Source: Psammoneis japonica (taxonomy: Eukaryota). From it: a DNA stretch of 35,653 nt. A program made the position numbers and the translations under genes. The stretch spans positions 1 to 35,653 of the forward strand of contig QPGO01000382.1 of NCBI GenBank assembly GCA_008632985.1, written 5' to 3'. The notes under the pieces are model-generated. The model made no database searches and was not told where the DNA came from. It was given only the letters and a program-made list of their open reading frames with translations. How positions within the stretch are numbered: the first letter of the stretch is position 1; each line of letters opens with the position of its first letter. Positions 6,985 to 32,828 of this stretch are shown one piece after another.

Positions 6985-7374
6985 GGTCAAGAGTGAAGAT
7001 GAAGAGGCAGGAGAGCGACGAGACAACAGACAAGCGAGTCAAAACAATGTTTCTTGAAGCCAATCTGAAATCCGTGTTGTGTTTTTTAGCATAATACTTG
7101 TATAACTTCAAGTGACTCTCTTAAAAAGTAAGATAGTCGTATCGTACGACAGTTCGAGTCTTGGTTCAAGTTCAGTATTTATTGTCAATGACCTTCTCCA
7201 GGCACTCTCCACCGTGAGCCTCGCTGCGCGCTGTATGGTAGGGCCCGCTTACCGCTTATTTGCCAATCCGTTCTGCGGTGCCTATCATATGTGGATATGG
7301 TAGAGGTAGTAGAGCAGGGAGCATTTTGACGTCGGGAAGTCTATTATTTGCATTACTATATTTTTCAAAACATC

Positions 7375-11554: not shown

Positions 11555-14500
11555 TCGTGACGATCCTTCAAGTGGGATTGCACGCAATCTCGTACAAAAC
11601 GCAAATGGCTCTAAAATGTTGACAGCAACTAAAAACAGATGTTGCATCTTTGTCCCCGTACAAATTCTACAGCAGCCACACAAAATTGAAAAATTCACTC
11701 AGCCTCTCGATCTTCGTTCTCCGCGACGCATCGAACAAACTTGAACTCAAAGTCGATGGCGCAGCGGTGCATCTTGAATGTTTTGACAAGCTTGTCGAGC
11801 GCAATCGGTCCAAATTCATGGACCCGCTTGGTGTCCTCAATGCATCCATTGTCAATTGCATGGCAAGCCTGAATGCACTGTCGTGCTCTCTTTGCAAACT
11901 TGCACATGCGTTCCAGCATCAACACCTCTTCTGACAAGCAATGCTCAACTGACTTCTTGAAGTTTTCTTTCCCTCGTTTCTGTGACAGGTCAAGGTTTCG
12001 GTGCTCACCTTTGGAGCATGCCCAAAGATGCTCCATTCCCTCCCCTGCTAATTCTGCATGGCATTTTGGAGTCAAGATGACTCGCACTCCCATTCGACGC
12101 GCATGATGTTGAAGCAGTGTCGTTTCGTTCGCGAAGTCTTCGCAGGAGGCAAGCATCTCTGCGGGCTCGGTGTTTTCCATGTGGTTCCCATGCTCATCCT
12201 TTGTCCCCCCTTTTGTGTGCTTTGGGCTTGCATCAATCAACCCCCTTTCTGTCAAGACTTGCAACAAGCCTTTGGGCTTGCCGCTCCAACCGGGCAATGT
12301 TTTCTGTGCTCTCTTTTTGGTTGATGTGCCGGCATTCTCACAGTCTTTCTGCAGATCCTTCTTTGTGGTGCCCTTTAGAACCACACAGGTTGGATCATTG
12401 GCCTTCAAGTCATTTTCTAACTCTTCCTTGAGTTTGTCAACAGTCTTCCATTCATCGGTCGGCATGTCATGCTTTCGTCACACCCGTTCTTCTGGGTCCA
12501 TCAGGTGAGGTCCCTCGTCATCGTCCTGAAATGCCATTTCTTGCGTCTCACCACTTTGCAATCGTTGAGAATTCTTGTGCTCTCCAATGCATTTGTCTGT
12601 GAGGGTGCTGCTTCTCATCTTGCATTTTCCACCCCACCCCAGGTTCATCTTGTCGGTCGACAACCCGTCCTCCCGCTGCTTCGAATGACCCGCCGAGTGG
12701 TCAAAAAAAAAGATGTGCTCAAATTCCGGACACATTTCATCCAGAACATCAACACAGTCTTCCAGCTGCGTTGCCATGTGGTTGCAATTCCAATGACCCT
12801 CGTTGTTCTGGCCGCACTCGAACTTGACCATGAACGGGCTCGTTTCCAAATCTTTCTTGGTGGCTGATCCTCGGGCTTCTTTCGCTGCTTCTTCGTCACT
12901 GCACTTGGTCCCTTTCCTGTTCTCATTGATTCGCTTGAGTGATTCTTCCTTGAGCGCTTGGATCAAGCCAAACTCGCGACATGTGAAAAGCGAGAGCATG
13001 ACTCCAAGACCTTCGTCCTTCGGAACAAGAGCGGTCTCGCCATGGGGTCCAACCCAAGCCCTGCCAGTCAATGGGAATTGCTTGAAAACAGCCTCATCTT
13101 GTCCCCGTGAAATGACTGGCTTTTCACCCGCAGGAAACCAACAGCTTAGATGGCCACCGCATTGCTTGGCTTTCAAATCGTCGGATTGCGCAATCTCATC
13201 ACGAAAGCCACTCCAGTCGTCGACGTGAAAATCCACGAACACGTTCCCGTCTCGAGTGAACAGAGAGCTCTCACCACGAGTTGGAACAAGCGACTGGTTC
13301 ATGAGATCAGTTGCCTCCTCCAATGGAATTTGAATCCATCTGCAGCACCGCTTCTCCAACTCGAGACACTCCTTGTTAAACTTCTTTCGATGCGACTTCG
13401 TGGCAGGCTTCTCGTGTCCATCAACATGAAAGCCTTTGAGCCCATGCGTGTGCTCAAATCCCAAGAGACGCATCCAACGGGCTGCTGTTGATGCAGAAAG
13501 TGACCTGAGTTTACACTGTTTAAGAAACAAACTTTTGGCTTCTTCCTCTTCTGCAGTCGGTTCTCTGGATTTGCCCAACGACTCCATCGCGTTCTCAAAG
13601 TCGTCATCATCAACTGCCACAACATCTTTCTTTGCGTTCAGCATCAGCGCCGGTGTGATTTTGTTGTGAACATGCTCGTGCATCAGTTCAACAGAGAGGT
13701 CCTTCAAGTTCTTGACTCCACAGCAAATAAATGCATTCTTCACCTCAGGATTCTGACTGAAGAAGGGCGGCAGTTGCGATTCGCTTCGGTTCCGGTGCTG
13801 AGGAAAGCAGTCACCTGCCTCAGCAAGCCGCTTGTGCCACCGCTGCACCACCTGCCAATTGGTTGTCGCAGTGATGCCATCTTCTTTTAATCGAGAAATG
13901 GCATGTTGACAGCACTGACCCCAACTCATGTTGTCCTCGATCTCCCTTCCTTCACCCTTGAGATTGTCAAGGGCCGCCTGAAGGGACACCATGATGCAGA
14001 GTGCACGATGACGAATGGACACCTTTTCAAACTCAGTTGCAAGTTTCTTGTCATCCTGGTCAGGCAAAACAGATTTACATCCTTGTGGATGATTGACAAC
14101 AGCAGAAAGAACGTTGATCCTGTCTTGTATGACCGACTTGACATCTACATCCGCGGGGTAAACCGACGTCGGCGCGAAGATGTTGCGTGCTCTCGTCGAA
14201 TCCCAACAGTTGAAGCGAGGAGCACCTTGTTGCCTTGCAGTCTCCAACTCTTCCTCAGACATGTCGTTCCCATTATTTTCACTTTCGATGCGTTGTTTCT
14301 TCTTGGCTCGTCGGGCCTTTTCTGTATTCTGGATGTCGGGATCCGTCTCCGAAAACTCTGCCAGCATGTCTGCTCTTCGCACCGAGCCTCTGCCCATTTT
14401 CTTTCAGACCGCCCCACTCCTCAGCCAGCCTTCAACATTTGTTGTTGTTGGCGGACGAAGAAACCGACTAGGAACTCCAACAGTAACAAGAAAGAACGTG

Positions 14501-16800: not shown

Positions 16801-19800
16801 TCACGCCGCAACGTCTAATATCGTGTTGGTGCTCTCCATTGTTATCTTGAAAGATGCATCCTTTGGTTGATTTTTCTCCAGACAAAATCGGCTAGAATCC
16901 TCTGCAAGACTCTCACGCTGAAATCCTTCTGGATGCTTTGAATGTATCGCTTCTATTTGCTTACGGAGGCCTGAGTTCTCAGGATACCAGACGTTCATCG
17001 ATTCTTGAACATGCGGCATTCGGCTGGCGATGAGTTTGTCATAGAGTTCCTTCCAACGCCCTCCATCACACAGGACGTTTTTCGGATTTAAAGGAAAGGT
17101 GTAACCGCCATCAATCTTCTCGCTGAGGAAGTCTTGTAATTCATCTACGTTGAGATATTTCCAACACACGTTCCCTGGAACGGTGTCTGATATGACCAAG
17201 TATTCGTCGTCTAGATCCTGAGGAAAGTAGTAATTGAAGCACTCTGCTCCGTGCCTTACTGGACCGGCGGTACTTGTAAGGCGGTGTATTGTGTTTTCCA
17301 TTGTACTGTACGACACTGGGTCTCCAAATCCCAGCTGGGGGACCTTGGGGTGAAAGCCATCATTGGCCGAATCCCTGAGCACTTCCAGCCATCGGCTAGT
17401 CCAGCTGTGAGGTCGTGGAGGGCTTTCGAGTATCTCTTCGATCTTATCTACACACCATGTCAGCACCTCCAATTGATCAGGCGGGAGCGGCGCAGAGTAT
17501 CTCACATTTCGTGTACCAATCAAGAAGCAGTCAAAGTCTGACACCACCGGCAACACACGGCCATTTTCTTCGTACGCCATTACGAACTCAAATGGACTCA
17601 GCGGGTCGTCCGTGCCGTATTGCAGAACGACTGCTTTTGGCATGCCTTTGACGTTCCTGGTTGACCTGTTGCGCAGCGAGGCAAAATTCATGTCTTGAAA
17701 GGGAGGAAGGGAAGGACGTCCCGTATCAAATTCAGAACCTGCTCTCCGAGTGCAGTCTTGCCTAACAAAACAAGCTTCCCAGAAAACACGGACAGATAGG
17801 TCCATCCCATATGACTGCGGAGAATAGTCATCAATATAGATGATGGAGGGATCAGTGACGTCCAACAGCATGCTCTTAAGCGCATCCCGCTGTGATGACT
17901 CACTAGCACGATCGTTTGAAAGTATCTTCGAAGCCTGTCGGACAGTCTCGATCATGTCTTGACCGACGGCCTCCAACTTGGCGGCAGCAACCTCTCTCGC
18001 ACGTTTATTCTTGAAGAATAGCCGAACTCTACCGTCCTTTGGAAGCGTCCGAACTTTGTACTTGTGCCTGTTTTCGTTGATCTGTAGGAATGGGACAAAT
18101 CCAGACAGCTTTCCACGCTTCGCGGACTTTCCTTTTATGTCTAGTCCTTTCCCCGTGCCTTCGTTCAGCATCATTCTACGAATCGCATCGAAGCTTGTCG
18201 GTCGCCAAATACTAAATACCATTGGAGCGAGATCGGTCCCTCGAAGTAGATCAGATATCACGTCCCGATCAATGCCATCCTGAAGGCTGTATGCCTTCTC
18301 TTGTGTGACAATGTTGACAGCGCTGAGGATCTGATAGCGAGGATCAACTCGACGAAATGTGGTCGACCAAATCTTTACTCGATCGGCTTTGCGAAGCGCA
18401 GCAGCAGGACGAACGGGCACTGAGGCTCGCCTGTGAATATCAAGACTTCCAGCGCTAAATGACTTGACGTCGCCCGTGGATGCGCTTTTTGCGGGCATTG
18501 AAAAAGACTGGCTTCTTTCTACCTTTGTCGAAAAAGAAAAGCCATCGTCCTTGTCATTTGTGGACGACACTGTTGTTTCGCCTATAGTGTCTACCGGTGT
18601 CTCTTCAAACTTCGCCAACTTTTCCAGGTCATAGGTATACCGTTCACTTTTTGGGTTGAACCGATAAAAAAGATGCTCATCTTTCAACGGATGCTGTCTA
18701 GAAACGTGCTCGAACAAGTTAAAGGCTCTCGCCAACAACTGGCCAACGTGCACTGCGTCTTCACGCGAAAGTGATGCGTCTCTCGAAACAAGAAAGTCCA
18801 CAGCGTCGCTGCCTACGAATGTATCCTTGTAGACACGTAAATGATGGCGATTCTCCGAAGTCTTGACTCCTTTTCCAAACTCAATAGCAATTTCGTTGAG
18901 CTCTCTCAAGTCCACAACAGTGTCGTCCGTGATATCATCGTGGGCCCCCCTAGGTTTGAGTTCTCCCATGTTGACAAAGCGGTAGAAGAGGTACGCATCT
19001 TTAAACTCGTGTTGCCGCACGCAGTGCTCAAACAAATTAAATGAGGTGGCCATCTGTCGTCCAAGCACTACAGCATGTTCACGAGTCTCTGCTAAGCCCT
19101 CCTCCACTAAAAAGTCGACCGCCTCTCTTCCGATGAAAGTGTCCTTGTATGTCCTCATGCGATACTTGTTGTCTGCAACCCTGACATTGGCTCGAAGACT
19201 TTGAGCAATCAAATGCAGCGAATCGGACTCGCTCGTCATGTCACTTGCAAAGGATTCTTTTCGACGTGCCTTTTCTTTCTCTGAAGTAAATTTGAAGAAC
19301 AGATAGTCATCTTTAAAGGAATGATCGCCAGTCACGTGTTCAAAGAGATGCATTTCGGATGCCAGCCTCCGACCAAGTACCACGGCTTCCCGCCGAGTCT
19401 GAGCAAAACTGGAATTGACGAGGAAATCGACAGCTTGGCTCGCAACAAATGTATTCCGGTACGACTTGAAGCGCCAAACATGGGTCCCAACATGGACTCC
19501 TTTACGAAATGCATTTGCCACCTGAAGCAAGGATGGAGTGTTGCCGGAATTGCCCACGCTGCTCACATGGCTGTGATCAGAATATGCGTCTGGCAACAAC
19601 ACGTCGTGCTGCGAGTCTTCGTCATCGGGTGTAATACGCCGTTCTGGAGGAACAAATCTATAAAAGAAGTAGTCGTCTTGAAAATCATGCTCGTTGCAAA
19701 CGTGTTCAAAAAGGTTGTACTGATGGACAAGCTTCCTCCCCAGCCTGACTGCGTCCTTTCTTGTTTCGGCAAGCTTGGACTTGATCATGAAATCGACCGC

Positions 19801-20889
19801 CTTGGAACCCACAAAAGTCTTTTTATATACCTTTAATCGGTACATGTGATCTTTTATAGGCATTTCATTCTCAAACACAAATGCAGCCTCTTGCAGCGGA
19901 GGGCATGACTTGTCATGTTGCTCGGCGTGGCTCGTGTCGTTATGGTCAGCATCGGAATGCGCGAATCTCTCGTCTTGAGGAGTAAAGGAGTAAAAGAGAT
20001 AGTCGTCTCTAAATTCGTGCTGATTTAGCACGTGCCGAAACAGATTGTATTCTCTGGTGAGTGCTCTCCCTAGTTCCACAGCATGGTGTCTGGATCGGGC
20101 CATTCCTGATATCACCATGTAGTCGACCGCGTCGCTTCCAATGAAAACATTATTGTACGTCTGAAAATGATACCGTAGATCTTTTGTTTCGATTTCATTT
20201 TCAAATGCCTTGGCCAATTCACTCAAGTCTTGAAAGGATGATGCCGAGTTCAAGGACAAGGATCCGAGAGAGCCTTCCTCCGAGTCGTCATCAAGCAATG
20301 CATGTCCATACGTATGCATAAAACACCCAACTTCGTCTTGGATGGACACGAATCGATGATGCTTTGGAACAAATTGAAAGAATAAATATTCGTCTTTAAA
20401 CGAGTGCTGTCGACAAACATGCTCCATCAAATTGTACTCCTTCATGAGGGCATTTCCAATCTGCACAGCATGCTTTCTCGAGTCTGCGAGCTTGTTTTTG
20501 ACCAGAAAATCGACCGCCTCTCTAGCTACAAAGCAATTTGGATAATTCCGAAAGTGATACTTGTGATCCGATACCTTCATGCCGTTCTCAAATATTTCTC
20601 CAATGCGCATTAGACTCATACCGTCCAACGAGCTCGCCAGGGAATATCCCGATTCGGATCTAGTAAAGTCGTCTGTAAAGCTGCCGCCTCTCGAGTTGAT
20701 GGAAATATCTCTGGGCGGTGAAAAGCTCAGACCGTTTTCATAATGACTTTCTTTGTTAGTTTCGTGAGAGACAACCAATGTCGACATGGATGATAAGCGT
20801 GGATCACTGACGGGTGGTGGTGGTTCGGACGCGTGATCAAGTACTTCTAGTCGATCATCTTGCTTGCAACATTGAAAGATGCGCTTCAT
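16801..20889 (-). CDS. Six tandem DEP domains fused to a C-terminal anthrax EF/CyaA/ExoY-like (class II) nucleotidyl cyclase domain
   Basis: Uninterrupted 1362-aa ORF. Six repeats of the form xxYxxxFxG/AxxAVDFLV...R..AV..G..L....LFEHV...H.FKD.YLFYRF (DEP; ~18650-20590). C-terminal motifs WRPT...GKGLDIKGKSAKRGKLSGFVPF, PVVSDFDCF and VRHGAECFNYYFP. Confidence 0.88.
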   Translation of the reverse strand: MKRIFQCCKQDDRLEVLDHASEPPPPVSDPRLSSMSTLVVSHETNKESHYENGLSFSPPRDISINSRGGSFTDDFTRSESGYSLASSLDGMSLMRIGEIFENGMKVSDHKYHFRNYPNCFVAREAVDFLVKNKLADSRKHAVQIGNALMKEYNLMEHVCRQHSFKDEYLFFQFVPKHHRFVSIQDEVGCFMHTYGHALLDDDSEEGSLGSLSLNSASSFQDLSELAKAFENEIETKDLRYHFQTYNNVFIGSDAVDYMVISGMARSRHHAVELGRALTREYNLFRHVLNQHEFRDDYLFYSFTPQDERFAHSDADHNDTSHAEQHDKSCPPLQEAAFVFENEMPIKDHMYRLKVYKKTFVGSKAVDFMIKSKLAETRKDAVRLGRKLVHQYNLFEHVCNEHDFQDDYFFYRFVPPERRITPDDEDSQHDVLLPDAYSDHSHVSSVGNSGNTPSLLQVANAFRKGVHVGTHVWRFKSYRNTFVASQAVDFLVNSSFAQTRREAVVLGRRLASEMHLFEHVTGDHSFKDDYLFFKFTSEKEKARRKESFASDMTSESDSLHLIAQSLRANVRVADNKYRMRTYKDTFIGREAVDFLVEEGLAETREHAVVLGRQMATSFNLFEHCVRQHEFKDAYLFYRFVNMGELKPRGAHDDITDDTVVDLRELNEIAIEFGKGVKTSENRHHLRVYKDTFVGSDAVDFLVSRDASLSREDAVHVGQLLARAFNLFEHVSRQHPLKDEHLFYRFNPKSERYTYDLEKLAKFEETPVDTIGETTVSSTNDKDDGFSFSTKVERSQSFSMPAKSASTGDVKSFSAGSLDIHRRASVPVRPAAALRKADRVKIWSTTFRRVDPRYQILSAVNIVTQEKAYSLQDGIDRDVISDLLRGTDLAPMVFSIWRPTSFDAIRRMMLNEGTGKGLDIKGKSAKRGKLSGFVPFLQINENRHKYKVRTLPKDGRVRLFFKNKRAREVAAAKLEAVGQDMIETVRQASKILSNDRASESSQRDALKSMLLDVTDPSIIYIDDYSPQSYGMDLSVRVFWEACFVRQDCTRRAGSEFDTGRPSLPPFQDMNFASLRNRSTRNVKGMPKAVVLQYGTDDPLSPFEFVMAYEENGRVLPVVSDFDCFLIGTRNVRYSAPLPPDQLEVLTWCVDKIEEILESPPRPHSWTSRWLEVLRDSANDGFHPKVPQLGFGDPVSYSTMENTIHRLTSTAGPVRHGAECFNYYFPQDLDDEYLVISDTVPGNVCWKYLNVDELQDFLSEKIDGGYTFPLNPKNVLCDGGRWKELYDKLIASRMPHVQESMNVWYPENSGLRKQIEAIHSKHPEGFQRESLAEDSSRFCLEKNQPKDASFKITMESTNTILDVAA

Positions 20890-21376
20890 TTCTTTTATTT
20901 AAGTCAGTACCAGAAGTCAGATACCTTGAGCGCCTCAATCTATGAGAACTTAGCTAGAAGGGGAGTCAAAGAGAAAGAATAGATAAGGCATGCACAAGCA
21001 ACACACACTCTTGAAAAATGCTCTTGCGTGTTGCGTGTTCCATCGCGAAGTTGCTCGCATGTTCGAGTGAAGGTCACGTTTGTCTTTGTTTATTGTGACA
21101 TTTACAGAGATGTAGAAAATCGTATTATGACATAAGAAGGTCATATTCAATATAACGTAATTTAGAAAGCGTCCGATTCTTCAATTAACATTAAAATAAA
21201 AAGGAATGTCAAAGTCATTTTGATAGGTTACAGAGAAACCGATCACAAAAAATGACGCTCCGCTTGACAAAACTGCTTCTTTCCCTTTCCCCGCCACAAA
21301 CATCGCATTACTTGAGTTGGCTATTGCATCTGACCATCGCTACTCCCCAATTCAACTTCACAAAGACGACCGCGAC

Positions 21377-22761
21377 ATGAAGAATGGGTACAGCAGCAGG
21401 CCCCAAAACCGGAGCGTTGTCGTTCATTGGCGTGCAGTGACGTTTGTATTTTGATTGGTCTCTCGTTTCGTGGATTACACACAAACTTGAACGTGTTTCA
21501 CTTGTTCATTCCAAAGTTTCTCGGCGAACAGACTCTAAGAGCGTTCGAAAGCAACGGTTTGTTTTCCAGCTCGTATAAAACAAAACTACCAGAAGCTCTT
21601 TTGCCCGTTACTTTTTCAGGCTGTTGCACCGGACACAGTACGATATTACATGCGACATGCCTTACAGAGAAAGCTTGCAATGTTTCGCATTATCCTTTTT
21701 CCTCACCACAAGAGGCGTCATACTTTAAAAGGTCGGTGCTTAATGGTACAGAGAAGATGGAGTTGAGAAGAATTTGCATGCAAGCTGCAGAGCGAAAACC
21801 GCCTCCCCTGCGGTGGTGCTCATCCCAAAATCTGCCGACAGATGAGAAATATCCCATGGGTTGTAGTCAAATTTCCATGGGCGGTGGGTCCGGGCCGTAC
21901 GACCGAGTCTTGTTGTTTCCGCAAGGAAAGCTAGCATTTTGTGGAATACCCAAAGCCGGAGTCACGCAGTGGATACAGTTTTTGCGATTTACCTTTGGAG
22001 CAAAGGATTACCAAAGCCCGCCATACTCCAAATCAGACGTGGGATATGCCATGTTTGATACTATGTGCAAAGAAATACGAGACGAAATTTGGAATGATGA
22101 GTCTTGGACCAAGGCGATCTTTATTCGCAACCCGGCTGAACGTTTGTTGTCGGGATATCTCGACAAGATTGAGGGCAATCAAAGATTCGTTGGAGCGAAC
22201 GTGACGTTTGCAGACTTCGTTGATTTTCTTGCAATGAAGCAAGTACTCAGATTAGATTCAGACAAGGGCCGATCACAAGGCATGTTCACTGGACTCTCCT
22301 GGAAAACTGATCCGCACTTTCGACCGCAGGCTTGGGCTTGCGGATTGTCTGAGGAATTGGACAGGTTTCAATACGTCGCGTCAATGGACCGTGTCGCCTA
22401 CCATACAAAATCATTGCTACAGCAAGTAAATATGTGGGATTCCTTTGGACGTCACTATCGTTTGTCAAATGGGACAAATTCAAATGACACCGCAAATGTA
22501 AAGTGGCCTCCCGATCCTCTGCAGCAACAAGACGAGGAACTGGGTTTCCAGCAACAAGTTGGTAAGATTACCGACTCGGCAGGAGCGCACAACACTGGTG
22601 CATCAAGCAAGATCGAAAAATACTATACTCCAGAACTAATGAAGAGAGTACGAGATCTGTATGCGATGGATTTTGCGTTGTGGGATGCACTGCAAGTCGC
22701 CGACAAGGAAGGCTTTGTACGCGGCAAAGACATTGTGAAGAAACTGAACCCAAAGTGTTGA
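21377..22761 (+). CDS. Golgi-type carbohydrate sulfotransferase (Sulfotransfer_2/CHST-like), copy 1
   Basis: FCGIPKAGVTQW (5'-PSB), FIRNPAERLLSGYLDK (3'-PB) and DPHFRPQ. Alignment with copy 2 puts the start at ATG 21377 (MKNG), with a 1-nt deletion near 21450. Confidence 0.85.
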
Positions 22762-23697
22762 ATGCAAGAATAGACATTTTGCATTCGTTGCTTCTCCATT
22801 CCGCTCGCTCTTACTTGCTACAGGTTGACTCGCTCACTTTGATCGTGCAATCACTGACGCCGACTAAGGAGCTGTTTATCCTTGCAGCTTTACTTTTTTC
22901 AAGTACGACAAAACAACGCTGCTGTTCCGTGACCGTCTTCCGCCAAACGTGAAGCTACAAACAAAACTATGATTCAAAAAGCTACGTCGACGTTATTGTT
23001 ATCGCTTTTGCATTGTTTTGGATAAGATCGAAGAAAATGAAGTAGTCCTTCAAGTGGGGTCTCAAACACCCGCTTCCTCGAATGGTGCACTTCCCTGAAT
23101 TCTGGAAAAGATGATCTCTCTACGAGCCACGTCAGTTTCAACTAACAAACCCTTCAGCTGCTACCAATACTACTGCCGACACTGAAATAAGTTGGCATTT
23201 TTACTGGTTCGGCCTCTGGAAGCGAGAGTCACGATGCCCTCAAACCCTACTTTCTAGAGATAAGTACTGCATTATTTTCTAGAGTGTTTCTAAAATTACT
23301 CGCTCATCGGTTCATTGGATATTCAAAATGTGAGCAAACGTACTATGTCATGGATTCCATAAAAAGAAAGCGAACCACTGCATAGACATGAATTACATTC
23401 GCTAATGGATATGATAATATTTCATTCCGCGACCAGAAATATCGGAGACATTCGAATTATTTAACGCAAATGACTGCAAGTGACAAATCCGGGATCACTC
23501 AATCACAGCATTTGTAATTCGTAATCCGACATCACATCCGCTTCGCCGATCCCAATTTATGATAACTTCTATATTTCGCACCCTCCCGCCTCCCAAACCT
23601 CCCGCGGCTTTCCTCATTCGCTTTCACGCCTCGAAAAACGAGTCGTTTATTTTGAGTAGCCTATCGTATTTGACGATCGCTTGAAGCAGAACGTGAC

Positions 23698-25131
23698 ATG
23701 ACGAACGGGCAAAGCAGGCAAAAATATCAGATCGTGAATTGGCAGACGTTGGCGTTTGCGAGTTTGATTGGTCTCTGTTTTCATGGATTCCAAACGAGCT
23801 CAAGTTCCTTTCACTCTTTCATTCCAGAGCTCATAGGCGAACCGGCTCTGAGAGCGTTGGAATTCAACTATTTGTTTTCAAGCGATACTTCTCGCGAAAG
23901 TTCGCTTGAAACAGAGCTGCCAGATGCTCTTCGACCGGTGTCGTTTTCAGGCTGTTGCAGTGGACATTTTTCGGATTTCCATGCAACATGCCTTACAGAG
24001 AAAGCTTGCAATGTCTCCTATTATCCATTTTCATCTCCGGAAGAGGCGTCATACTTTAAAGGATGGGAACTAAGCGGAAAAGAGAAGATGGAGTTGAGAC
24101 AAAAATGTCTGGAGTACGCCGAGAGAAAACCTCCTCCTACACGATGGTGTTCATCAGAGAAACTTCCAACAGATGAGAAATACCCCATGGGTTGTAGCAT
24201 GAATTCCATGGGCGGTGGTTCAGGGCCTTATGATCGTGCATTAGTATTTCCGCAAGGAAAGCTGGCATTTTGTGGCATCCCCAAAGCCGGAGTCACGCAG
24301 TGGCTTCAGTTTTTGCGATTTACCTACGGTGCAAAGGATTACCTAAGCGTACCATATTTCAAGTCAGATGTAAGTTATTCTAGGCTCGATGTTTTGAGCG
24401 AAGAAGTGAGAGACGAAATTTGGAGTAACACATCATGGACCAAGGCGATCTTTATTCGTAACCCGGCTGAACGTTTGTTGTCTGGGTATCTTGACAAGAT
24501 TGAGGGCAAACCAGTACATGTCGGTCACGCGAATGTGACCTTTGCAGAGTTCATCGATATCCTTGCAATGAAGAACATCACCAGACTGAATTCAAAGAAT
24601 GGCCCATCAACAGGAATGTTCACTGGGCTGTCATGGCATACTGATCCGCACTTTAGACCACAAGCTTGGGCATGCGGATTGTCTGAGGAATTGGACATGT
24701 TTCATTACGTCGCATCAATGGACCGTGTCGCCTTCCATACAAAATCATTGCTGCAGCAAGTAAATATGTGGGATTCCTTTGGACGTCATTATCGTTTGTC
24801 AAATAATGAAACAAACTCTATATTGACACCATGGAAAGTGTGGCCTCCCGAACCCCAGCTACAACGAGAAGGGGAGGCAGAACTGGGTTTCCAGCAACAA
24901 GTTGGCAAGATTACCGACTCGGCGCGAATGCACAATACTGGTGCAACAAGCAAAATCGACAAATATTATACTCCAGAGCTTATGAAGAGGGCGCGAGATG
25001 TTTATTGGATGGACTTTGCTTTATGGGATGCACTACAAGAGGCAGACAAGGAAGGCCTTGTACACGGCAAAGACATTGCAAAGAAACTTAACCCAAAGTG
25101 TGGAATGCAAGAGTCGCCTTTAAAAAGCTAG
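23698..25131 (+). CDS. Golgi-type carbohydrate sulfotransferase (Sulfotransfer_2/CHST-like), copy 2
   Basis: Intact 477-aa ORF with an N-terminal signal anchor and the same PAPS-binding motifs; clear tandem paralog of 21377..22761. Confidence 0.9.
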   Translation: MTNGQSRQKYQIVNWQTLAFASLIGLCFHGFQTSSSSFHSFIPELIGEPALRALEFNYLFSSDTSRESSLETELPDALRPVSFSGCCSGHFSDFHATCLTEKACNVSYYPFSSPEEASYFKGWELSGKEKMELRQKCLEYAERKPPPTRWCSSEKLPTDEKYPMGCSMNSMGGGSGPYDRALVFPQGKLAFCGIPKAGVTQWLQFLRFTYGAKDYLSVPYFKSDVSYSRLDVLSEEVRDEIWSNTSWTKAIFIRNPAERLLSGYLDKIEGKPVHVGHANVTFAEFIDILAMKNITRLNSKNGPSTGMFTGLSWHTDPHFRPQAWACGLSEELDMFHYVASMDRVAFHTKSLLQQVNMWDSFGRHYRLSNNETNSILTPWKVWPPEPQLQREGEAELGFQQQVGKITDSARMHNTGATSKIDKYYTPELMKRARDVYWMDFALWDALQEADKEGLVHGKDIAKKLNPKCGMQESPLKS

Positions 25132-25517: not shown

Positions 25518-26734
25518 TTACAAGGACGCATTTTTTGGAAAATGATACCGCGCCGCCAATTTGGGAGAAATGGCATTTTTCAAACGACGAACAACTTGCT
25601 CCACCAAGAATGCACGAGGCGACAAATCTTGCTGCTGAAGCGCCTTGGTTGTCCAGGGAACAGCATGAAGGGGCGTGTAACAAATGGAAATGCCCGTGGC
25701 GACATGAAAATAAGGTGCCAGGGCGTCTTGGATGGCTGGCATTCTCGAGAATACGTGTCCAACTCGGCCATGTCCACAATGTTGGATGCCGTTTCGTCAT
25801 AGATACCATTGTTACCCACCGCATCCATGTGGGCCTTCATCTTGACGAGCTTCTGCTGGACGCTTTCGGCTAGGGCCGGAAAGGCAGGATTATCCAGCAT
25901 TCCCAACAAGGTGTGCGCAATCTTGTAGAATTGATAAATTTTCGACATGGCGTAGACATAATTGTACTTGAAAATCTTGTAGGTCGGGATCAAAAGCTCT
26001 TGCCCTTGAATGGTTTCGTGGCGGTCGGGATGATCACTGGGATTGGTTGCGTCCGTGCCGGTAAGCACGACGCGAAAGTTAGTCATGCCAACAAGACACT
26101 CTTGCAGAGCCGTGCACAAGTTGGTGACGGACGCAACGTTGCGGGCAAAGGGATTCTCACCCGTATGACGACCCAAGGTAAAGTACACGGTAAAGATCTT
26201 GTCGGGAGCATTTGCCTTGTAATCTGCAAGGGCCTGTTGGAAAACATTCCTGAATTCGTCGGAACCCACGTCTGCAACATCCAAGTGGGATTTGGGAATG
26301 TGTACAATGTTGGAGGGAAGATCCTTGACGGTGGACCGTGAAACAGTGTACACCTTGTCGCATGACCCCGAGAGCAACTCGACAAGGGTTTCTGAAATGG
26401 AGCTAGGTTTAGCTGCGTACTTGCCACCAAACACAATTGGAAATTCATTGGCGTTGGGCTGAAGCTGTTGCACGTCGGCCCATATTTCCTTTTCTTGCTC
26501 CCACATGTCTTTATTGATATTGCGAAAGAATTCCAACACTTCTGGCATTGCTTCTGTTTCGTCCTTGAACTCTGGAAGAGAGACGAAGTGCTCCAGCTTT
26601 GCACGAATCGGAGTAGTCATCAAGAGCCTGTAATAAGCGAGTGTAGGAGAACCGCCAGTGGCCTTGACTGCCTCCTCTTGTTCAGCCAATAAGGCCTTCA
26701 TATGTGCTTCTGCCGATTTATTTGTCGTCGACAT
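25518..26734 (-). CDS. Uncharacterised ~405-aa protein, possibly an atypical NAD(P)-binding Rossmann/SDR fold
   Basis: ORF 25580..26734 with a probable frameshift near 25740 into ORF 25518..25742, which reads as more natural protein. IVFGG...VYTVSRS and a YAMSK (YxxxK) motif suggest an SDR-like fold. Confidence 0.6.
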
Positions 26735-26951
26735 GGTGTACAGTTCTAATCACAGGAGAAAGAGAAATAATGAAGTTTCCTCCCTTCTCGTATTGTTGTC
26801 GTTGCCGCTGTGAGCGCTCCTGTGCGTCCGCCGCGCTACTGTACTGTGCGTGATGATGCACGAATCGAATAAAATGCGATACTGTAATGCACGGATCAAA
26901 ACAGCCAGAGCGCGGAACTATTTTGTTGCAGCATCAAAACTCACCGGCATT

Positions 26952-29751
26952 ATGCGTCGTCGTGTCAATGATCCGCCCGCACGAAGCAGGCTGAAATTCG
27001 ATGATCTTGGGGAAGAAGGGAGGCCTCTGGTTTCAGAAGGCACATCACTCAATGTTGAGTGGGTCGGCCTTACATCAGAAGCATGCCCTCTTCACGGGGG
27101 CGTTGAATGCCCCCGTGAAGAAACGTTGCTTCGGGATCCTTGGGGCGGAGAAATTGAAGCTTATCAAAGACCGTCATCAATGGGTCCGAGCAAGCAGCTT
27201 ATTTACATTATCCATCGTGGACCTGACACAAAAGCAGGCTCAGTGAATCCTTTGGCGCATGCCTTGGAGCAGTTCGGGGTTGAGCGCTTTGCCGACGAAT
27301 TTCACGAGGATCACTCGATGCCCACGGGGCACTCGAATTACAAGTCCATGCAGCGTGGCCTCTATAGTTGTTCCCATGTGGCGGTTGTGCTGAGCAGAAA
27401 TTTCATGGAATCGGAACATTGCACTCGAGAGGCTAACACTGTTCTCAAACGAAATTACGATGGAGATTCCGTCACAATTCTGCCGCACTGCTTCGGAGTC
27501 GACATTGACGATCCAAGATTCAACGAGTTTAACAGGCTTATTCGGCAAAATCAACCAGGTGGAACATCTGGCATTGTTCAACAAGGCAGCGGCGAACGAC
27601 AATTTTTGATAAAAATCGCGTCTGACATCCTCCTTCATTTTGGGAAAGTTGTTCAACCCGAGGAAATAAAGCGAGTCGTCATCAACTACAACACACAACT
27701 GCACGAAGAACCGTCAGCCGTGGAAGCGAGGCATCGTTCCTGTTGGCGCACCCACAGCAGGCGCTATCCAAGGTGCAGACCTGGGTGGGGAATCATCTCA
27801 CTGCCAGTGTGTTTGGTGATTCTGGGTGTCATCTCCAATGTGTTTTGCGCCCGCAGGAGCTGGTGCGTCGAAAGACATCGATGCAACGCAATTGCTCGGG
27901 ACATTCCATTCGGTCTGTCACTTTCAAGGATTGAAGAAATTGTTGATGTTGTGAACAACCACTCATTGCTCGGGTCTCATGTTGGATGTCCCGCCAGTGA
28001 GTGTAGCGCGACCCCGGAAACTCAGGCCTTGGCTTGGTTAATTGAACGTGACCAAAAGCAACTGTTTTCTTCAAGCAGTTGTGTGGAGCGGCACGTGTTG
28101 GTAACTTTATGGTTTGCTGTTGGGTCGTTCGGGAATTCAGAAGGATGGCTTACGCCCACTGACCACTGTACATGGCAAGGTGTGGAATGCGTCTCGAGTT
28201 GTACATGGCACGGTGTCGAATGCAGCTCACGTCAGGCTCATGTCGTGTCCCTTCGCTTACACAAAAGCAAGCTCAGTGGGCAATTGCCAATCGACATTGG
28301 TCTCCTGAATGGAATTCGTTCCATAGATTTGTCGGAGAACTGGTTGACTGGCACAATTCCGTCATCTCTCAGCAGACTGACGAGTTTAGAGAGGCTTATA
28401 ATAAACGGAAACTCACTATCTGGTCCGCTCCCTGCTGAGTTCTCCATTCTATCAGGCCTTGAAATGGCTTGGCTCTTTCAGACGGGCTTGGCTGGTACTG
28501 TACCGCATAGTTGGTGCAGAAATCGGGACCGAAAGCCATGTGACCACTGCTCTGAGGACTCCGCAGAGTTTGGCTTGATCAGTTTGATGCCACAGAGTCA
28601 GCTGTGCATGCTGTACCTGTTGTTCCAATGCTAGACCTTGTAAGCCTTTCAATATTACCAGAGCTGTGGCGGAATCTCCGATTGCGAAACTCATCCGAAA
28701 TGTTTCAGATGTTCCTGAGCTTGATTACCCTATGTACGGTAAAGCCAGGCGAGAAGCGGTCGTACTTGCATGGCTTCTTTTCGAGAATTCAATCGAACTC
28801 TCTGTCCAAGACTTGCCGTGGAAGATAGAGCAGCGCTATGCGCTTGCTACGCTTGTGTTTCCACTTTCGTCTTCTCAAGCTTTCCGTAACTTTGGGGGTG
28901 TCGACGAGTGCGATTGGAACTTCGTTGTTTGTCAAGATGGAGTTGTCGATGAGATCTATATGCAGTGGGATACGGCGTTTGGTGGTGCTTCTGCGGTGAA
29001 TGGTATCTTCATTTCGCCTGACCTTGCCATGCTGTCATCTTTAAGAAGACTTTATATTTACAATGCTCGAACCTTCGGTAAGCTTCCGTCCTCCCTCGAT
29101 CGTATGCGCCAACTGGAGAGTTTCATTATCGATTATGGAGATCCCAATTCTCTCCACGGAACTATTCCTTCATCGATTGCTGGTATGACGAGGTTAAAAT
29201 ATTTTTCCGTGCGGAAGGCAAAGCTCACAGGCACTATCCCATCTGAATTTGGTCTCTTAAAAGGCATCGAGGGGGTGAGCCTTCCGGAAAACGCACTTAG
29301 GGGATCACTGCCTCACGAAATTGGTCTTTTGAGACAATTAAAGGTACTGAATGTCGAAAAGAACTTATTGACGGGATCCCTCCCCCCTTCCTTTAGTATG
29401 CTAACAGACTTGACCACCCTGACTTTGAAAGGCAACAAGCTTTCAGGAACGCTACCAGCATCCATGGGTAGATGGACGGATTTAAGAGACCTCGACGTAA
29501 GGGGTAATTCTTTCGCGGGCACGATTCCCCGGATAACTGCACACTATCCAGACAAACATTATTATGTTGATTTGAAAGGCACAAACTTGACTGGTACGAT
29601 GCATCTGTGTTCAGAGAAAGAGTTGAAAGGATGCATTCGTGCTGATCTCGACAAAGTTTCTTGCCCGTGTTGCCGCGACTGTCTTGAGCGAACTATAGGG
29701 GGTGCCTTGAGTTTGGACCGACCCATATTAAGAGGACCCCCATTCTACTAG
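26952..29751 (+). CDS. TIR domain - transmembrane helix - two LRR modules (predicted type II membrane receptor)
   Basis: TIR at ~27190-27650: IYIIHRGPDTK...LAHALEQFGVERFAD...VAVVLSRNFMESEHCTRE...ILP. TM GIISLPVCLVILGVISNVFCA at ~27789-27851. LRR caps QALAWL/HCTWQGVEC and LAWL/ECDWNFVVC; plant-type LxxLxLxxNxLxGxIP repeats; VSCACC and VSCPCC C-caps. The two ORFs join via an apparent frameshift at ~28585-28600. Confidence 0.8.
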
Positions 29752-29848
29752 CCAAGTCAGATTAAGTTTGGCGCTAGATCAGAACTTTTGTGACCAAAAA
29801 AATGAAATGCAAAGAGGAAAATGACCGAACTCCGCCCTGCCTACAGTA

Positions 29849-32828
29849 CCCTGATTATCATAGAAAATCTGTACGAAAATCAAAATCTGTACCTATTTTT
29901 GAGGGGCTTGATGGACCGGCTGCGCTCTCATGGTACGGCCGGTTAAGTGTTTCGCCTCACGGGGAGGGACCCGGAGAGGCGTCTTGCAGTCAGGTGGATG
30001 TCAACTAAGCATTATGTACCCATCAGGGCCTGGAATTTCAACTTGTTTTTCGGAATTTTGAAAAAATGGGACCTCGTTGGTCGGCGAAAGGAGGAGCAAA
30101 CGGAGCGAGATTTTTCAAACCGGATGGATGGGTCTGACTTTTATGGACCAAGTGCAATGCATGAAGGTGGATGAGGAAACGATGGTTTCAGGGTTCTGTC
30201 TACGTTGCCATGCATGGAACACCGATCGTGAAGTTGAGACCAAAATTCAGAAAAAGAGCTCGCAACATGCTACACGATTACATAAAAGCAAAAATATCTC
30301 CAAAATGGTTCTACAGATTTTGTTATGATTCGCTCATGTTATGCAGCTGAGTACAAGAGATGTTTTGGAAACGAGAAAAGTGGGGGGATTCTGACTCGTT
30401 TTCGAGATAGAAGGCATTAAAGTTATAAAAAAATAGCACAAATGACGTCACTTCCTGAAAAAGTATTCTTTGATGAGAACGCATGTGAGGAGTTGTAAAA
30501 ATTGTTCGTGAATATAGAAGTATGATTGTGTGACGCTAAGTTCGCTAATCGTGTTTTTGAAGGGCCATACGACAGTGTTGTGATGATTATGACCCAGTCA
30601 TACAGTAGAATAAATATGATCACATCATGTCATGACACATGTTGTGACATCAACAAATTGCCTTTGTTTCGATGTGGCTTGTTGTAATTTGTCGTTGCGA
30701 CAAAAGAAAGAGCATTTCATTTATGTATTCTTTTCCTTTGACGAAAATATCGCAAATCTTAGGAAGAGTTTTCTGATTGGCCAAAACACATAAATGCAAT
30801 GCCCACTGACAAAATATCACATAAGACCAATAAAACAACACTTAAGCCCCTTAAAATGACACAACACCCATCTGCCTTTGCATGTGTTGTGCCACTGTGT
30901 TCGCACCAGCGAAAGACAAAACAATGACAGGCGACGGGATGCCTGCAGCCAATGGCACAAACATTGGAATCCTCATCACTTTGTCAGAAGCAAAGCCTGA
31001 GAGATGTCAAGATTGAAGCAGTCCTTCGGCCAGTGCATCAAAAATGCAGAACACAGAAAAAGAGTTTTGTGCTTGCACACCATGACCATGCTTTGCAGTT
31101 TGTTCTGTCCTCGCCAGTTTGCTCTGCCCACGCTTTTCAGCGCCTCACCATGATTCATCTGTGTGTGGTTTTAAATTGCACAGAAGGTTCTCTGCTGCTC
31201 TGCATTGCCAGAAACTCCTTCACAAAATGCGGCCCACTTCCATGCGCACACACTCCATGTTTGTGTGTTGCTTCAGCACCTTGTTCAAATCATCAGCTTG
31301 TCCAGTGCATGCAAAACTTTGATGACAAGCACAAGACAGAAGCACAGCAACAACAAAACTCTTTTGCAGGGGAGCAGCTGGTGCATCTGGGGAGCAAAGC
31401 CAATTGGCGTGCTTTTTGCTGCCTCGGCAGGGTGCCCTTGCCTGTGCAGTGCTTTTCTTCTCTTCTTTTGATCCAGTGCTCCTGTTCCCTTTTTTCAAGA
31501 TCATGCACATGACCCCAGTTTGAGTTGTCTCCAGTGACTTTGCTCACCCCAGCTTGCAGCACGACCCCCCTGCTCTCACTTGCAAACCCAGCAGCCCCGC
31601 TGGCACAGCCAGAAATGAGCTTTCTTGTTGTTTTTCTTCATGTGCAAAAACAATTCAGCAGCAGCTTCACTTCAAGCAAGAGATCTGCTTCTGGCAACTG
31701 CCATCTGGGTTTGTTGGGTTGCAACTGCAGCTCTTTTGAAGAGCAAGCTGATGCATCTGGGTTGCCACCACACCTGGCGCTGGCCCCCGAGCTGCAGCTG
31801 CTGTCCACACACAGCACTTGCACCACAGCACAAACTGGGTGAAGGAAAATCCTTGAGAAGCTGGTCATTTCATGTCAAAACTGCATCTAGAGTTTGCTCT
31901 CAACTGCTTTGATGTCAAAATTGACCCCATTGCAAAACAAACAACCAGCTCATCCCGGCGAGTGGACCGAGCCGGGACTTCTCTCTTCCGCCCCAGCGCC
32001 TCTTTGCTTTTCATTTCACACTGCTTTGAGCACAAGAAGAGTCTTTGTGGCTTGACTTTGCCTTTCAACAAAGTGCAACTTGCACAGCACTTGAACTTCC
32101 TTCCATGCAACTTGCAATTCATGCCAACCATGGAGCTGTCTAAGAGCGCAAATCTTTTGTTTTTCCAACAGCAAAACCTGTGTTTGCTGCAGCGGGTGCC
32201 TTGCTGCTGTGTCTTTTGTGTGCCAGTGCACCATTTCTTGCCCCACCTGCTCTCTTCCCCCCCCCCCCCCTTGACTTCAAGCTGCACACCACAACTCAGG
32301 TTGTGCCAAATGTCCTGGATCTCCAGGAGGCATGATGGCGCTGCAGCTGGCACTCGCCTGTTGTGCCCTTGTTCTTTCTGATTTTGTCAACAGACAACCA
32401 GAGTGCCAACACTCAACATTTGCCACACCACAGCAACAAGCCTGTCACCTTGCTCTGCTGCCCCCCTCCTTGCCCACATTGGTCCATCACCCCTTTTTCC
32501 ATCAATCGTGTGCCCGCCCACCCAGCACCACCTTTCCTCCTTCTGTGGCCGCCAAAGTCTGCGCGCAACTTGAAAAAATCTGTACCTATTCTGAACGGAA
32601 ATCTGGAATCTGTACCCTAGTACAAATGTACGTAGGATGTACGTATAACGCGCCAGGCCTACCTGGGAAGGGGCTCTTCAAATCTGAGAAAATCCAAAGC
32701 CAGTTTTAGCGAAATCAATGAAAATCTATACTTTTTCAGAATCTGTACCTATTTCTCCGGAAGCCTTTGAAAATCTGTACCTATTTTTAACCAAAATCTG
32801 GAGTACAGATTTTCTATGATAATCAGGG
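29849..32828. mobile_element. TIR DNA transposon (2.98 kb) with TA target-site duplication (Tc1/mariner-type insertion), non-autonomous or decayed
   Basis: Perfect 26-bp inverted repeats CCCTGATTATCATAGAAAATCTGTAC (29849..29874) and its reverse complement (32803..32828), each flanked by TA (29847-48, 32829-30); subterminal AATCTGTACCT repeats; no recognisable transposase inside. Confidence 0.9.

What the first reader, a model, noticed from the sequence alone, without database searches (positions are those of the whole stretch)
26952..29751. Inverted Toll-like receptor architecture: cytosolic N-terminal TIR, TM helix, extracellular LRRs
Seen: a TIR-like segment (HRGPDTK, F.D, VVLSRNF..S..C..E with Glu at 27429-27431) precedes a basic stretch and one hydrophobic helix, then two capped plant-type LRR modules; there is no signal peptide. 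Known: animal TLRs are LRR-TM-TIR, plant TNLs are soluble TIR-NB-LRR, and the Glu of the WCxxE motif is the catalytic residue of NAD+-cleaving TIRs. Inference: an independently assembled type II surface receptor whose ligand-induced clustering could activate a TIR NADase, making it a candidate algal innate-immune receptor.
Basis: partly seen in the sequence, partly recalled or inferred. Interest (0 to 1): 0.82.

Follow-up and report, generated by a model that had tools for sequence, protein, structure and literature searches.

The report
Inverted TIR–membrane–LRR receptor gene, frame-broken
This algal gene puts a plant-like TIR signalling domain inside the cell and plant-like leucine-rich repeats outside, the reverse order of an animal Toll-like receptor; relatives elsewhere show the design is real, but this copy has a one-base frame break in the middle of its outer part.

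Summary

The junction is not an intron. Both ORFs are collinear with one uninterrupted 902-aa homolog, P0125, and the frames meet at a single extra base, 28587. As assembled the protein stops at 28634, so this is an assembly error or a recent frameshift.

Four of the 96 TIR relatives found have the same TIR-TM-LRR order. Their flanking charges place the TIR in the cytosol. The TIR is of the plant/bacterial kind, and close relatives of this TIR also occur fused to NB-ARC-TPR. This supports assembly independent of animal TLRs.

NADase activity and an immune role are inferred only. Seven literature searches found no description of this architecture. I rate it a new variant of a known kind, interest 0.62.

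The parts
26853..26954 (+). Candidate start codons of the CDS in frame 0: ATG at 26853, 26856, 26874 and 26952. The upstream in-frame stop is just before 26814.
   Evidence: The divergent neighbour gene on the minus strand starts at 26734, so there is no room for an upstream signal-peptide exon. Homologs also begin 30-50 aa before the TIR with no hydrophobic stretch.
27201..27650 (+). TIR domain (aa 84-233). It includes HRGPDTK at 27213-27233 and the catalytic-position Glu (aa 160) at 27429-27431 in the motif S-E-H-C-T-R-E.
27726..27785 (+). Basic juxtamembrane stretch (aa 259-278) on the TIR side of the helix.
   Evidence: Five K+R and no acidic residue in the 15 residues before the helix.
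27786..27854 (+). Single transmembrane helix (aa 279-301), a presumed signal-anchor.
   Evidence: Kyte-Doolittle 2.47 over 19 residues, the only such peak. A hydrophobic segment of 21 or more residues lies downstream of the TIR in P0125, P0128, P0183, P0180, P0134 and P0122, about 60-80 residues after it in five of them and about 210 in P0180.
28008..28223 (+). N-terminal cap of LRR module 1 (an A-L-x-W-L ... C-x-W-x-G-V-x-C type). It contains a 33-nt tandem duplication (28167-28199 / 28200-28232) that doubles the CxWxGVEC motif.
   Evidence: LRRNT_2 scores 15.5 bits, below its cut-off of 20.7. The region aligns to P0125. The duplication is 26 of 33 identical. This region is modelled as capping helices in the AF2 ectodomain model.
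28242..28517 (+). LRR module 1: four 24-residue plant-type repeats (aa 431-522).
   Evidence: LRR_1 26.6 bits. Four motif hits spaced 24 aa apart. AF2 pLDDT 94-98 across the repeats. Foldseek top hits are BAK1, SERK1/2, BIR3 and SOBIR1 ectodomains at E 1e-10, rmsd 1.6-2.4 over about 144 columns and about 30% identity.
28509..28641 (+). C-terminal Cys cap of module 1, split by the frame break. The frame-0 part runs 28509-28586, base 28587 is surplus, and the frame +1 part (a C-x-x-x-x-C-x-C-C-x-C-C cluster) runs 28588-28641. The as-assembled stop is TAG 28632-28634 in frame 0.
   Evidence: Three-frame translation compared with the same stretch of P0125. The pairwise alignments end at P0125 residue 474 for ORF1 and restart at 528 for ORF2.
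28753..28932 (+). N-terminal cap of LRR module 2 (frame +1), ending in E-C-D-W-N-F-V-V-C.
   Evidence: It aligns to P0125 residues 572-646.
29041..29607 (+). LRR module 2: about eight 24-residue plant-type repeats (frame +1).
   Evidence: LRR_1 47.3, LRR_8 35.8, LRR_14 40.7 and LRR_4 29.7 bits, all above cut-off. Six distinct motif hits. Collinear with P0125 residues 647-870.
29608..29751 (+). C-terminal Cys cap of module 2 (29608-29682), a short tail, and stop TAG at 29749-29751. There is no second hydrophobic segment.
   Evidence: aligned to the C-terminal cap of P0125...C-P-C-C.

Best explanation
The locus is a member of a small family of single-pass type II membrane proteins, so far unnamed and probably from diatoms or other ochrophyte algae. 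The order is: N-terminal cytosolic TIR of the plant/bacterial (enzyme-type) kind, a basic juxtamembrane stretch, one signal-anchor helix, then extracellular plant-type LRR modules with Cys caps.

Shown: the domain identities, their order, collinearity with an intact 902-aa homolog, recurrence of the architecture, retention of the catalytic-position Glu, and a SERK/BAK1-like fold for the first ectodomain module.

Inferred mechanism: a ligand, or a co-receptor, bound by the outer LRRs brings two or more chains together. The cytosolic TIRs then self-associate as other TIRs must, and either cleave NAD+ to make a nucleotide signal or nucleate other TIR proteins. The likeliest role is surface surveillance of microbes or viruses.

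In this assembly the CDS carries a +1 frame break at base 28587, inside the C-terminal cap of module 1. As written it would give TIR-TM-four LRRs plus a 15-residue out-of-frame tail. Module 2 is still a perfect 387-codon open frame, so the break is either an assembly or sequencing error or a very recent, possibly allelic, frameshift.
For: - Catalytic Glu: the column is at least 90% conserved in 56 sequences and invariant in the five-member subfamily. It is the RUN1 E100 column, because the wild type scores 43.7 bits and the E100A chain 39.5 over the same range.
- One ORF spans TIR, TM helix and LRR module 1.
- Collinearity with P0125: ORF1 aa 84-522 matches residues 34-474 (35% identity, E 3e-75). 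ORF2 aa 21-362 matches residues 528-891 (29% identity, E 3e-35).
- Recurrence: 4 of 96 HMMER hits (P0125, P0128, P0183, P0180) are TIR-TM-LRR. P0134 is TIR-TM-DUF285 and P0122 is TIR-TM-Cys-rich ectodomain.
- Topology: K+R counts in the 15 residues on the TIR side versus the far side are 5v1, 5v2, 7v0, 2v2 (with four acidic residues on the far side), 6v3 and 4v0 in the six homologs. Relatives with the opposite order also keep the charge on the TIR side (0v6, 1v6). A Pro/Thr/Ser-rich stalk follows the helix in 5 of 6 homologs. All four N-glycosylation sequons in the window protein lie after the helix.
- Ectodomain: the model (pLDDT 82.4) matches extracellular plant LRR receptor domains, with 124 hits at E<=1e-3.
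- Module 2 is open by far more than chance.
Against: - The reading frame is broken in this copy, so the full protein may not be made here.
- The window protein's own charge flanks are ambiguous (5 v 4) and it lacks the Pro/Thr/Ser stalk.
- The Trp of the WCxxE motif is His here. Across the subfamily it is His in 3 of 5, Asp in 1 and Trp in 1, so catalytic competence is not assured.
- The family is thin. All four other TIR-TM-LRR proteins are singleton clusters from unnamed assemblies. Neither this protein nor its neighbour is in the 15-billion-protein collection.
- TIR-TM-LRR proteins fall in two separate TIR clades in a quick, weakly resolved tree.
- No ligand, partner or activity is known.
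Confidence: 0.55

Rival explanations
1. Same architecture, but the TIR is a non-enzymatic scaffold. Receptor clustering would recruit soluble TIR proteins by TIR-TIR contacts, as TLRs recruit MyD88/MAL. A candidate partner is the TIR-NB-ARC-TPR class, which carries a TIR from the same group in the tree.
Against: The catalytic-position Glu is invariant in the subfamily and at least 90% conserved among 56 relatives. The best sequence and structure matches are NADase-active TIRs (AbTir, RUN1, RPP1, L6/L7, SPARTA), not adaptors.
Confidence: 0.25
2. This particular copy is a pseudogene or a truncated allele. The +1 frameshift is real, the protein ends at 28634 without its cap cysteines, and module 2 is a recent relic. 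This is compatible with the family reading above.
For: The frame break falls inside a conserved cap, with no intron-sized gap. Long neighbouring ORFs such as the 4.1-kb DEP gene are unbroken, so the assembly is not riddled with indels. The cap of module 1 also carries a 33-nt duplication. The far-side flank of the helix is unusually basic.
Against: Module 2 keeps 387 open codons (P about 2e-9), all its cap cysteines and its repeat consensus. Any decay must therefore be very recent. A one-base surplus is also what a consensus error looks like. The window holds one N (6692) and other split genes.
Confidence: 0.4
3. It is a surface receptor or adhesion protein for non-immune signalling, such as cell-cell, mating, bacterial-partner or developmental cues. 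The TIR would be a generic signalling module.
For: The closest structural relatives of the ectodomain, the SERK/BAK1 and BIR co-receptors, serve development as well as immunity (their roles are established knowledge). There is no defence-gene context in the window: the neighbours are DEP, sulfotransferase, RING/MYND/TPR and ankyrin genes.
Against: In bacteria, plants and animals, TIR domains with the catalytic Glu are overwhelmingly immune or cell-death modules (established knowledge; PMC12489294, passages read, reports TIR genes induced in virus-resistant Gephyrocapsa). Shuffling of this TIR onto NB-ARC-TPR, NACHT, Kelch, Ank and Sel1 partners is typical of immune receptor repertoires.
Confidence: 0.2
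4. The topology is the opposite (TIR outside, LRRs in the cytosol), or the hydrophobic segment is not membrane-spanning.
For: In the window protein itself K+R is 5 before and 4 after the helix.
Against: Homologs have clearly more positive charge on the TIR side, and Pro/Thr/Ser stalks follow the helix. The Cys-capped LRR modules match extracellular plant domains. All four sequons lie after the helix. A 280-residue folded domain ahead of a signal-anchor normally stays cytosolic (established knowledge).
Confidence: 0.04

Closest known systems
Animal Toll / Toll-like receptors (type I: signal peptide, LRR ectodomain, TM helix, C-terminal TIR)
   Same: It is a single-pass membrane protein with extracellular LRRs and a cytosolic TIR. 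The expected logic is ligand-driven association of TIRs.
   Different: The order and topology are inverted: TIR first, no signal peptide, a type II anchor. The LRRs are the plant 24-residue type with plant-like caps. The TIR is closest to plant and bacterial TIRs. None of the 24 PDB sequence matches is an animal TLR, IL-1R or adaptor TIR, so it is not a TLR by descent.
Plant TIR-NB-LRR (TNL) and TIR-only immune proteins (RUN1, RPP1, L6, Roq1, AT1G72930)
   Different: There is no NB-ARC. A TM helix separates the TIR from the LRRs, so the LRRs are outside the cell. His replaces the Trp of WCxxE.
Plant LRR receptor-like proteins and SERK/BAK1, BIR and SOBIR1 co-receptor ectodomains
   Same: Module 1 folds as a small capped plant-type LRR ectodomain: rmsd 1.6-2.4 over about 144 columns at about 30% identity.
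   Different: The plant proteins are type I, with a signal peptide and a cytosolic kinase or short tail. Here the cytosolic part is an N-terminal TIR, and there are two capped modules in tandem.
Haptophyte (Gephyrocapsa huxleyi) ectodomain-TM-TIR proteins (PMC12489294, passages read)
   Same: They are algal membrane proteins with an intracellular TIR that keeps the catalytic Glu, proposed as antiviral sensors.
   Different: Those are described as extracellular region, then TM helix, then C-terminal TIR, and the paper states its TIR genes carry no LRR or NBS domains. Here the TIR is N-terminal with LRR ectodomains.
FG-GAP-TM-TIR relatives of this TIR (P0140, P0158, P0165)
   Same: Their TIR domains are relatives of this one, among the 96 hits (E 9.7e-9 to 4.8e-6), and they are single-pass membrane proteins with the charge on the TIR side.
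   Different: The order is the conventional one: ectodomain first, TIR last.

Membership tests
TIR domain (Pfam PF13676 / PF01582) | Profile score above the curated cut-off | tested here: met
   TIR_2 41.5 bits against 28; TIR 25.4 bits against 21.3.
TIR domain (Pfam PF13676 / PF01582) | Flavodoxin-like alternating strand/helix TIR fold | tested here: met
NAD+-cleaving (enzymatic) TIRs | Catalytic Glu on helix alpha-C (the RUN1 E100 position) | tested here: met
   Glu160 (27429-27431) is invariant in A2 and at least 90% conserved in A1. The column equals RUN1 E100, since the wild type scores 43.7 bits and E100A 39.5.
NAD+-cleaving (enzymatic) TIRs | Trp four residues before the Glu (WxxxE / WCxxE) | tested here: not met
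   It is His here. Across the subfamily it is His in 3 of 5, Asp in 1 and Trp in 1. That this Trp matters for activity is recalled, not tested.
NAD+-cleaving (enzymatic) TIRs | NAD+ consumption, nucleotide products and self-association | not testable with these tools
   This needs a biochemical assay.
Animal Toll-like receptor | Signal peptide, LRR ectodomain N-terminal to the TM helix, and TIR C-terminal | tested here: not met
   There is no N-terminal hydrophobic segment. The order is TIR (aa 84-233), TM helix (279-301), LRR (from 353).
Plant TNL | NB-ARC between TIR and LRR, in a soluble protein | tested here: not met
   There is no NB-ARC hit at E<=1, and a TM helix is present.
Plant-type extracellular LRR domain (LRRNT_2 cap plus 24-residue repeats) | 24-residue repeats with the L..L.L..N.L.G.IP pattern | tested here: met
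   Four repeats in module 1 and at least six in module 2. LRR_1, LRR_8, LRR_4 and LRR_14 are above cut-off in ORF2.
Plant-type extracellular LRR domain (LRRNT_2 cap plus 24-residue repeats) | LRRNT_2 N-terminal cap | tested here: inconclusive
   LRRNT_2 scores 15.5 bits, below its cut-off of 20.7. However, the modelled cap plus repeats superpose on SERK/BAK1 ectodomains.
Algal TIR-TM-LRR family defined here (P0125, P0128, P0183, P0180) | Collinear TIR, basic stretch, TM helix and capped LRR module(s) | tested here: met
Algal TIR-TM-LRR family defined here (P0125, P0128, P0183, P0180) | One uninterrupted reading frame | tested here: not met
   There is a +1 break at 28587 and a frame-0 stop at 28632-28634.

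The most novel reading that the evidence does not exclude
Diatom-type algae have independently built an 'inside-out Toll-like receptor'. It would be a type II surface receptor whose extracellular SERK-like LRR modules directly gate an N-terminal, plant-like TIR enzyme in the cytosol. Pathogen sensing at the cell surface would then be converted straight into an NAD+-derived nucleotide signal. Close relatives of this TIR also head soluble NB-ARC-TPR STAND proteins, so surface and intracellular receptors would feed one TIR-based immune network.
Probability: 0.3. Interest if true: 0.85.

Novelty: new variant of a known kind. Interest (0 to 1): 0.62.

Why it matters
LRR-plus-TIR surface receptors are regarded as an animal invention, and TIR-LRR proteins of plants as cytosolic. 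[quoted passage not shown]

A recurrent TIR-TM-LRR type II architecture would be a third, convergent way of wiring LRR sensing to TIR signalling. It would also give diatoms, which are major marine primary producers with almost no characterised immune receptors, a concrete candidate.

The design couples an enzyme-type TIR directly to an ectodomain. That makes a testable model for how TIR NADases can be switched on by extracellular ligands.

The caveats are that this copy is frame-broken and that all function is inferred.

Tried and rejected
- Intron at the junction: rejected. I enumerated GT...AG pairs by eye, and any candidate would delete residues that align with P0125. The homologous frame-0 and frame +1 codons are one base apart.
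- Programmed +1 frameshifting: I saw no stop-codon or known slippery context at 28584-28590, by eye only. I judge it unlikely but did not test it.
- RNA evidence: no RNA holder was listed for 26700-29900, so no reads could be laid.
- Whole genome: none is held.
- Word-index protein searches. The whole ORF1 query was swamped by LRR proteins; none of the 120 listed rows carried a TIR family. The TIR-TM region alone found nothing at 308-980 aa. The alignment query at longer lengths returned 47 proteins, mostly plant TNLs, and missed P0125 and P0128 although they were in the query, so it is not exhaustive.
- ESM Atlas: it gave only bacterial TIR+LRR clusters at 0.86, which is a lead only. A neighbour-gene query gave no taxon.
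- Exact look-ups: three ORF1 start variants and the neighbour gene are not in the collection. Relatives carry almost no names; the one taxon name is Gedaniella sp. in the P0122 cluster.
- Metagenome scan: 8 loci, all short and distant, none near-identical.
- Earlier findings of this scan: none.
- Tandem Repeats Finder found nothing in 26700-29900. The 33-nt duplication came from a direct comparison.
- The bacterial promoter/terminator scan is irrelevant here and was empty.
- Literature: seven searches and passages of five papers gave no description of a TIR-TM-LRR protein. Subscription journals and supplements were not seen.
Full report
**What is in the sequence**

The stretch 26814-28634 is one open frame on the + strand (frame 0). 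Candidate ATG starts lie at 26853, 26856, 26874 and 26952. A second open frame, shifted by +1, runs from 28588 to the stop at 29749-29751.

Counting from the ATG at 26952, Pfam places a TIR domain on aa 84-189 (TIR_2 41.5 bits against a cut-off of 28; TIR 25.4 bits against 21.3). It places LRR repeats on aa 452-490. In the second frame LRR_1 (47.3 bits), LRR_8, LRR_4 and LRR_14 are all above cut-off.

- A hydropathy scan finds one segment only, aa 279-301 (Kyte-Doolittle 2.47 over 19 residues). Nothing signal-peptide-like occurs in the first 70 residues, and there is no hydrophobic segment in the second frame.
- All four N-glycosylation sequons lie after the helix.
- Both frames are open far beyond chance. 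The second has 387 codons (P about 2e-9; 0 of 20,000 shuffles stayed open), while the alternative frames hold 17-25 stops.

**The TIR is real and of the enzyme type**

An AF2 model of aa 55-275, built on 56 aligned relatives, reaches mean pLDDT 86.4 and pTM 0.83.

- Foldseek against the PDB gives 31 matches at E<=1e-3, and all listed rows are TIR domains.
- By sequence, a profile of the five-member subfamily hits 24 PDB sequences, all plant or bacterial TIRs. The best are AT1G72930, Roq1, L6, L7, RPV1 and RUN1. No animal TLR, IL-1R or adaptor TIR is among them.
- The Glu is at least 90% conserved in the 56-sequence alignment and invariant in the subfamily.
- It occupies the RUN1 E100 position. 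On the profile, the wild-type RUN1 chain scores 43.7 bits and the E100A chain 39.5 over the same residues (with the entry title).
- One caution: the residue four before the Glu is Trp in the plant motif but His here. In the subfamily it is His in 3 of 5, Asp in 1 and Trp in 1.

**The ectodomain is plant-like**

Module 1 has four 24-residue repeats spaced exactly 24 aa apart, and module 2 has at least six clear ones.

An AF2 model of aa 301-545 has pLDDT 82.4, rising to 94-98 across the repeats. It superposes on the small capped ectodomains of BAK1, SERK1/2, BIR3 and SOBIR1 (E about 1e-10, rmsd 1.6-2.4 over about 144 columns, about 30% identity). There are 124 hits at E<=1e-3. The LRRNT_2 profile itself is below cut-off (15.5 against 20.7 bits).

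**The junction is a frame break, not an intron**

The best full-length relative, P0125 (902 aa), has TIR, TM helix and two capped LRR modules in a single protein.

- ORF1 aa 84-522 aligns collinearly with P0125 residues 34-474 (35% identity, E 3e-75).
- The second frame, aa 21-362, aligns with P0125 residues 528-891 (29% identity, E 3e-35).
- Inside the cap between the modules, P0125 reads ...G-L-V-S-L-K-A-D-C-R-L-V-L-C-T-C-C-T-C-C.
- The window reads G-L-I-S-L in frame 0, ending at 28586. It then reads C-H-R-V-S-C-A-C-C-T-C-C in frame +1, starting at 28588.
- One base, 28587, is therefore surplus; equivalently, two bases are missing.
- No GT...AG pair can restore the frame without deleting aligned residues.

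As assembled, the protein ends 15 residues later at TAG 28632-28634.

I could not decide between a consensus error and a real, recent frameshift. No RNA run was listed, no genome is held, and the window's proteins are not in the large collection.

- For a real break: long neighbouring ORFs are intact.
- For an error: the downstream module is perfectly preserved.

**The architecture recurs**

An exhaustive HMMER search with aa 1-330 found 96 relatives (13 at E<=1e-10; best 1.1e-23 at 43% identity). I scanned all 96 against Pfam and for hydrophobic segments.

- TIR, then TM helix, then LRR: four proteins (P0125, P0128, P0183, P0180).
- TIR-TM-DUF285: P0134.
- TIR-TM-Cys-rich ectodomain: P0122.
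- Opposite order (FG-GAP-TM-TIR): P0140, P0158, P0165.
- Soluble: TIR-NB-ARC(-TPR), TIR-NACHT, TIR-Kelch, TIR-Ank, TIR-Sel1 and TIR-Roc.

The only taxon name attached to any close relative is the diatom Gedaniella sp., in the P0122 cluster. The other clusters are unnamed singletons or near-singletons. The organism of the window was not determined. A diatom or another ochrophyte is the likeliest source.

**Topology**

In the six homologs with a helix after the TIR, K+R counts in the 15 residues on the TIR side versus the far side are as follows:

| Homolog | TIR side | Far side |
|---|---|---|
| P0125 | 5 | 1 |
| P0128 | 5 | 2 |
| P0183 | 7 | 0 |
| P0180 | 2 | 2 (plus four acidic residues) |
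| P0134 | 6 | 3 |
| P0122 | 4 | 0 |

- Five of the six have a Pro/Thr/Ser-rich stalk after the helix.
- Relatives with the opposite domain order also keep the positive charge on the TIR side (0 v 6, 1 v 6).
- The TIR is therefore always on the cytosolic face, and these proteins are type II.
- The window protein itself is ambiguous (5 v 4) and lacks the stalk.

**Origin**

In a quick maximum-likelihood tree of the 97 TIR domains (138 columns; many forks unresolved), the window's TIR sits in a group of 11 rows with SH-aLRT 94. That group holds P0125, P0128, P0122 and P0134, and also the soluble TIR-NB-ARC(-TPR) proteins P0121 and P0124 and the TIR-Sel1 protein P0137.

P0183 and P0180 lie in a separate clade with SH-aLRT 99. 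The TIR has thus been shuffled onto different partners, and the TIR-TM-LRR arrangement may have arisen more than once. With the plant/bacterial character of the TIR, this supports assembly independent of animal TLRs.

**Mechanism (inferred)**

The ectodomain resembles co-receptor-type LRRs that work by ligand-induced association. TIR enzymes need self-association to form their active site (established knowledge for SARM1, plant TIRs and AbTir).

The simplest model is that ligand-driven clustering of the ectodomains assembles the cytosolic TIRs. These would then cleave NAD+ into a signal, or recruit other TIR proteins.

**Literature**

Seven full-text searches found no description of a TIR-TM-LRR protein.

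- PMC12489294 (passages): Gephyrocapsa TIR proteins have an extracellular region, a TM helix and an intracellular TIR. The paper says its TIR genes carry no LRR or NBS domains.
- PMC7075850 (passages) and PMC2858798 (no occurrences of my terms): neither mentions such an order.
- 10.64898/2026.10.11.758280 (passages): not relevant.

Only open-access text was searched, and no supplements were read.

**Verdict**

The domain observation is confirmed, and the inverted architecture is real at family level. The claim of one ORF fails in this assembly because of a one-base frame break at 28587. The NADase and immune readings remain plausible inference. I rate it a new variant of a known kind, interest 0.62.

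Noticed in passing
window 28167-28232 (+): There is a 33-nt tandem duplication (26 of 33 identical) inside the N-terminal cap of LRR module 1. It doubles the C-x-W-x-G-V-E-C motif. P0125 has one copy. Tandem Repeats Finder did not report it.
   Followed up: partly
window 11695-14403 (-): This is a long frame of about 900 codons interrupted by a single in-frame TGA at 12478-12480. Both halves look like complex coding sequence, and neither has a Pfam match. It may be a broken gene or a stop inside an intron.
   Followed up: no
window 2559-4583 (-): Three same-frame ORFs are separated only by single TGA codons at 3132-3134 and 3594-3596. There is no Pfam match, and the sequence is partly of low complexity.
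   Followed up: no
window 16801-20898 (-): An uninterrupted 1365-codon ORF carries six DEP domains (PF00610, 346.7 bits). That is an unusual multi-DEP protein.
   Followed up: no
window 21334-22761 and 23674-25131 (+): A tandem pair of Sulfotransfer_2 genes (78.5 and 70.7 bits) lies just upstream of the TIR gene's divergent neighbour.
   Followed up: no
window 8840-9902 (-): An ACSF4-type beta-propeller is split over two overlapping ORFs in different frames (profile positions 2-124 and 177-329). This is an intron or another frame break.
   Followed up: no
window 6692: This is the single N in the window. It lies inside an ORF on the minus strand.
   Followed up: no
proteins P0140, P0158, P0165 (relatives, not in the window): Relatives of this TIR also occur in the conventional order FG-GAP ectodomain, TM helix, C-terminal TIR. 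Other fusions are to NB-ARC-TPR, NACHT, Kelch, Ank, Sel1, Roc/Ras, SAM and DUF285. This is a diversified TIR repertoire in unnamed algal-type assemblies.
   Followed up: partly
window 7330-8643 (+): One ORF combines a MYND finger, a RING finger and TPR repeats.
   Followed up: no
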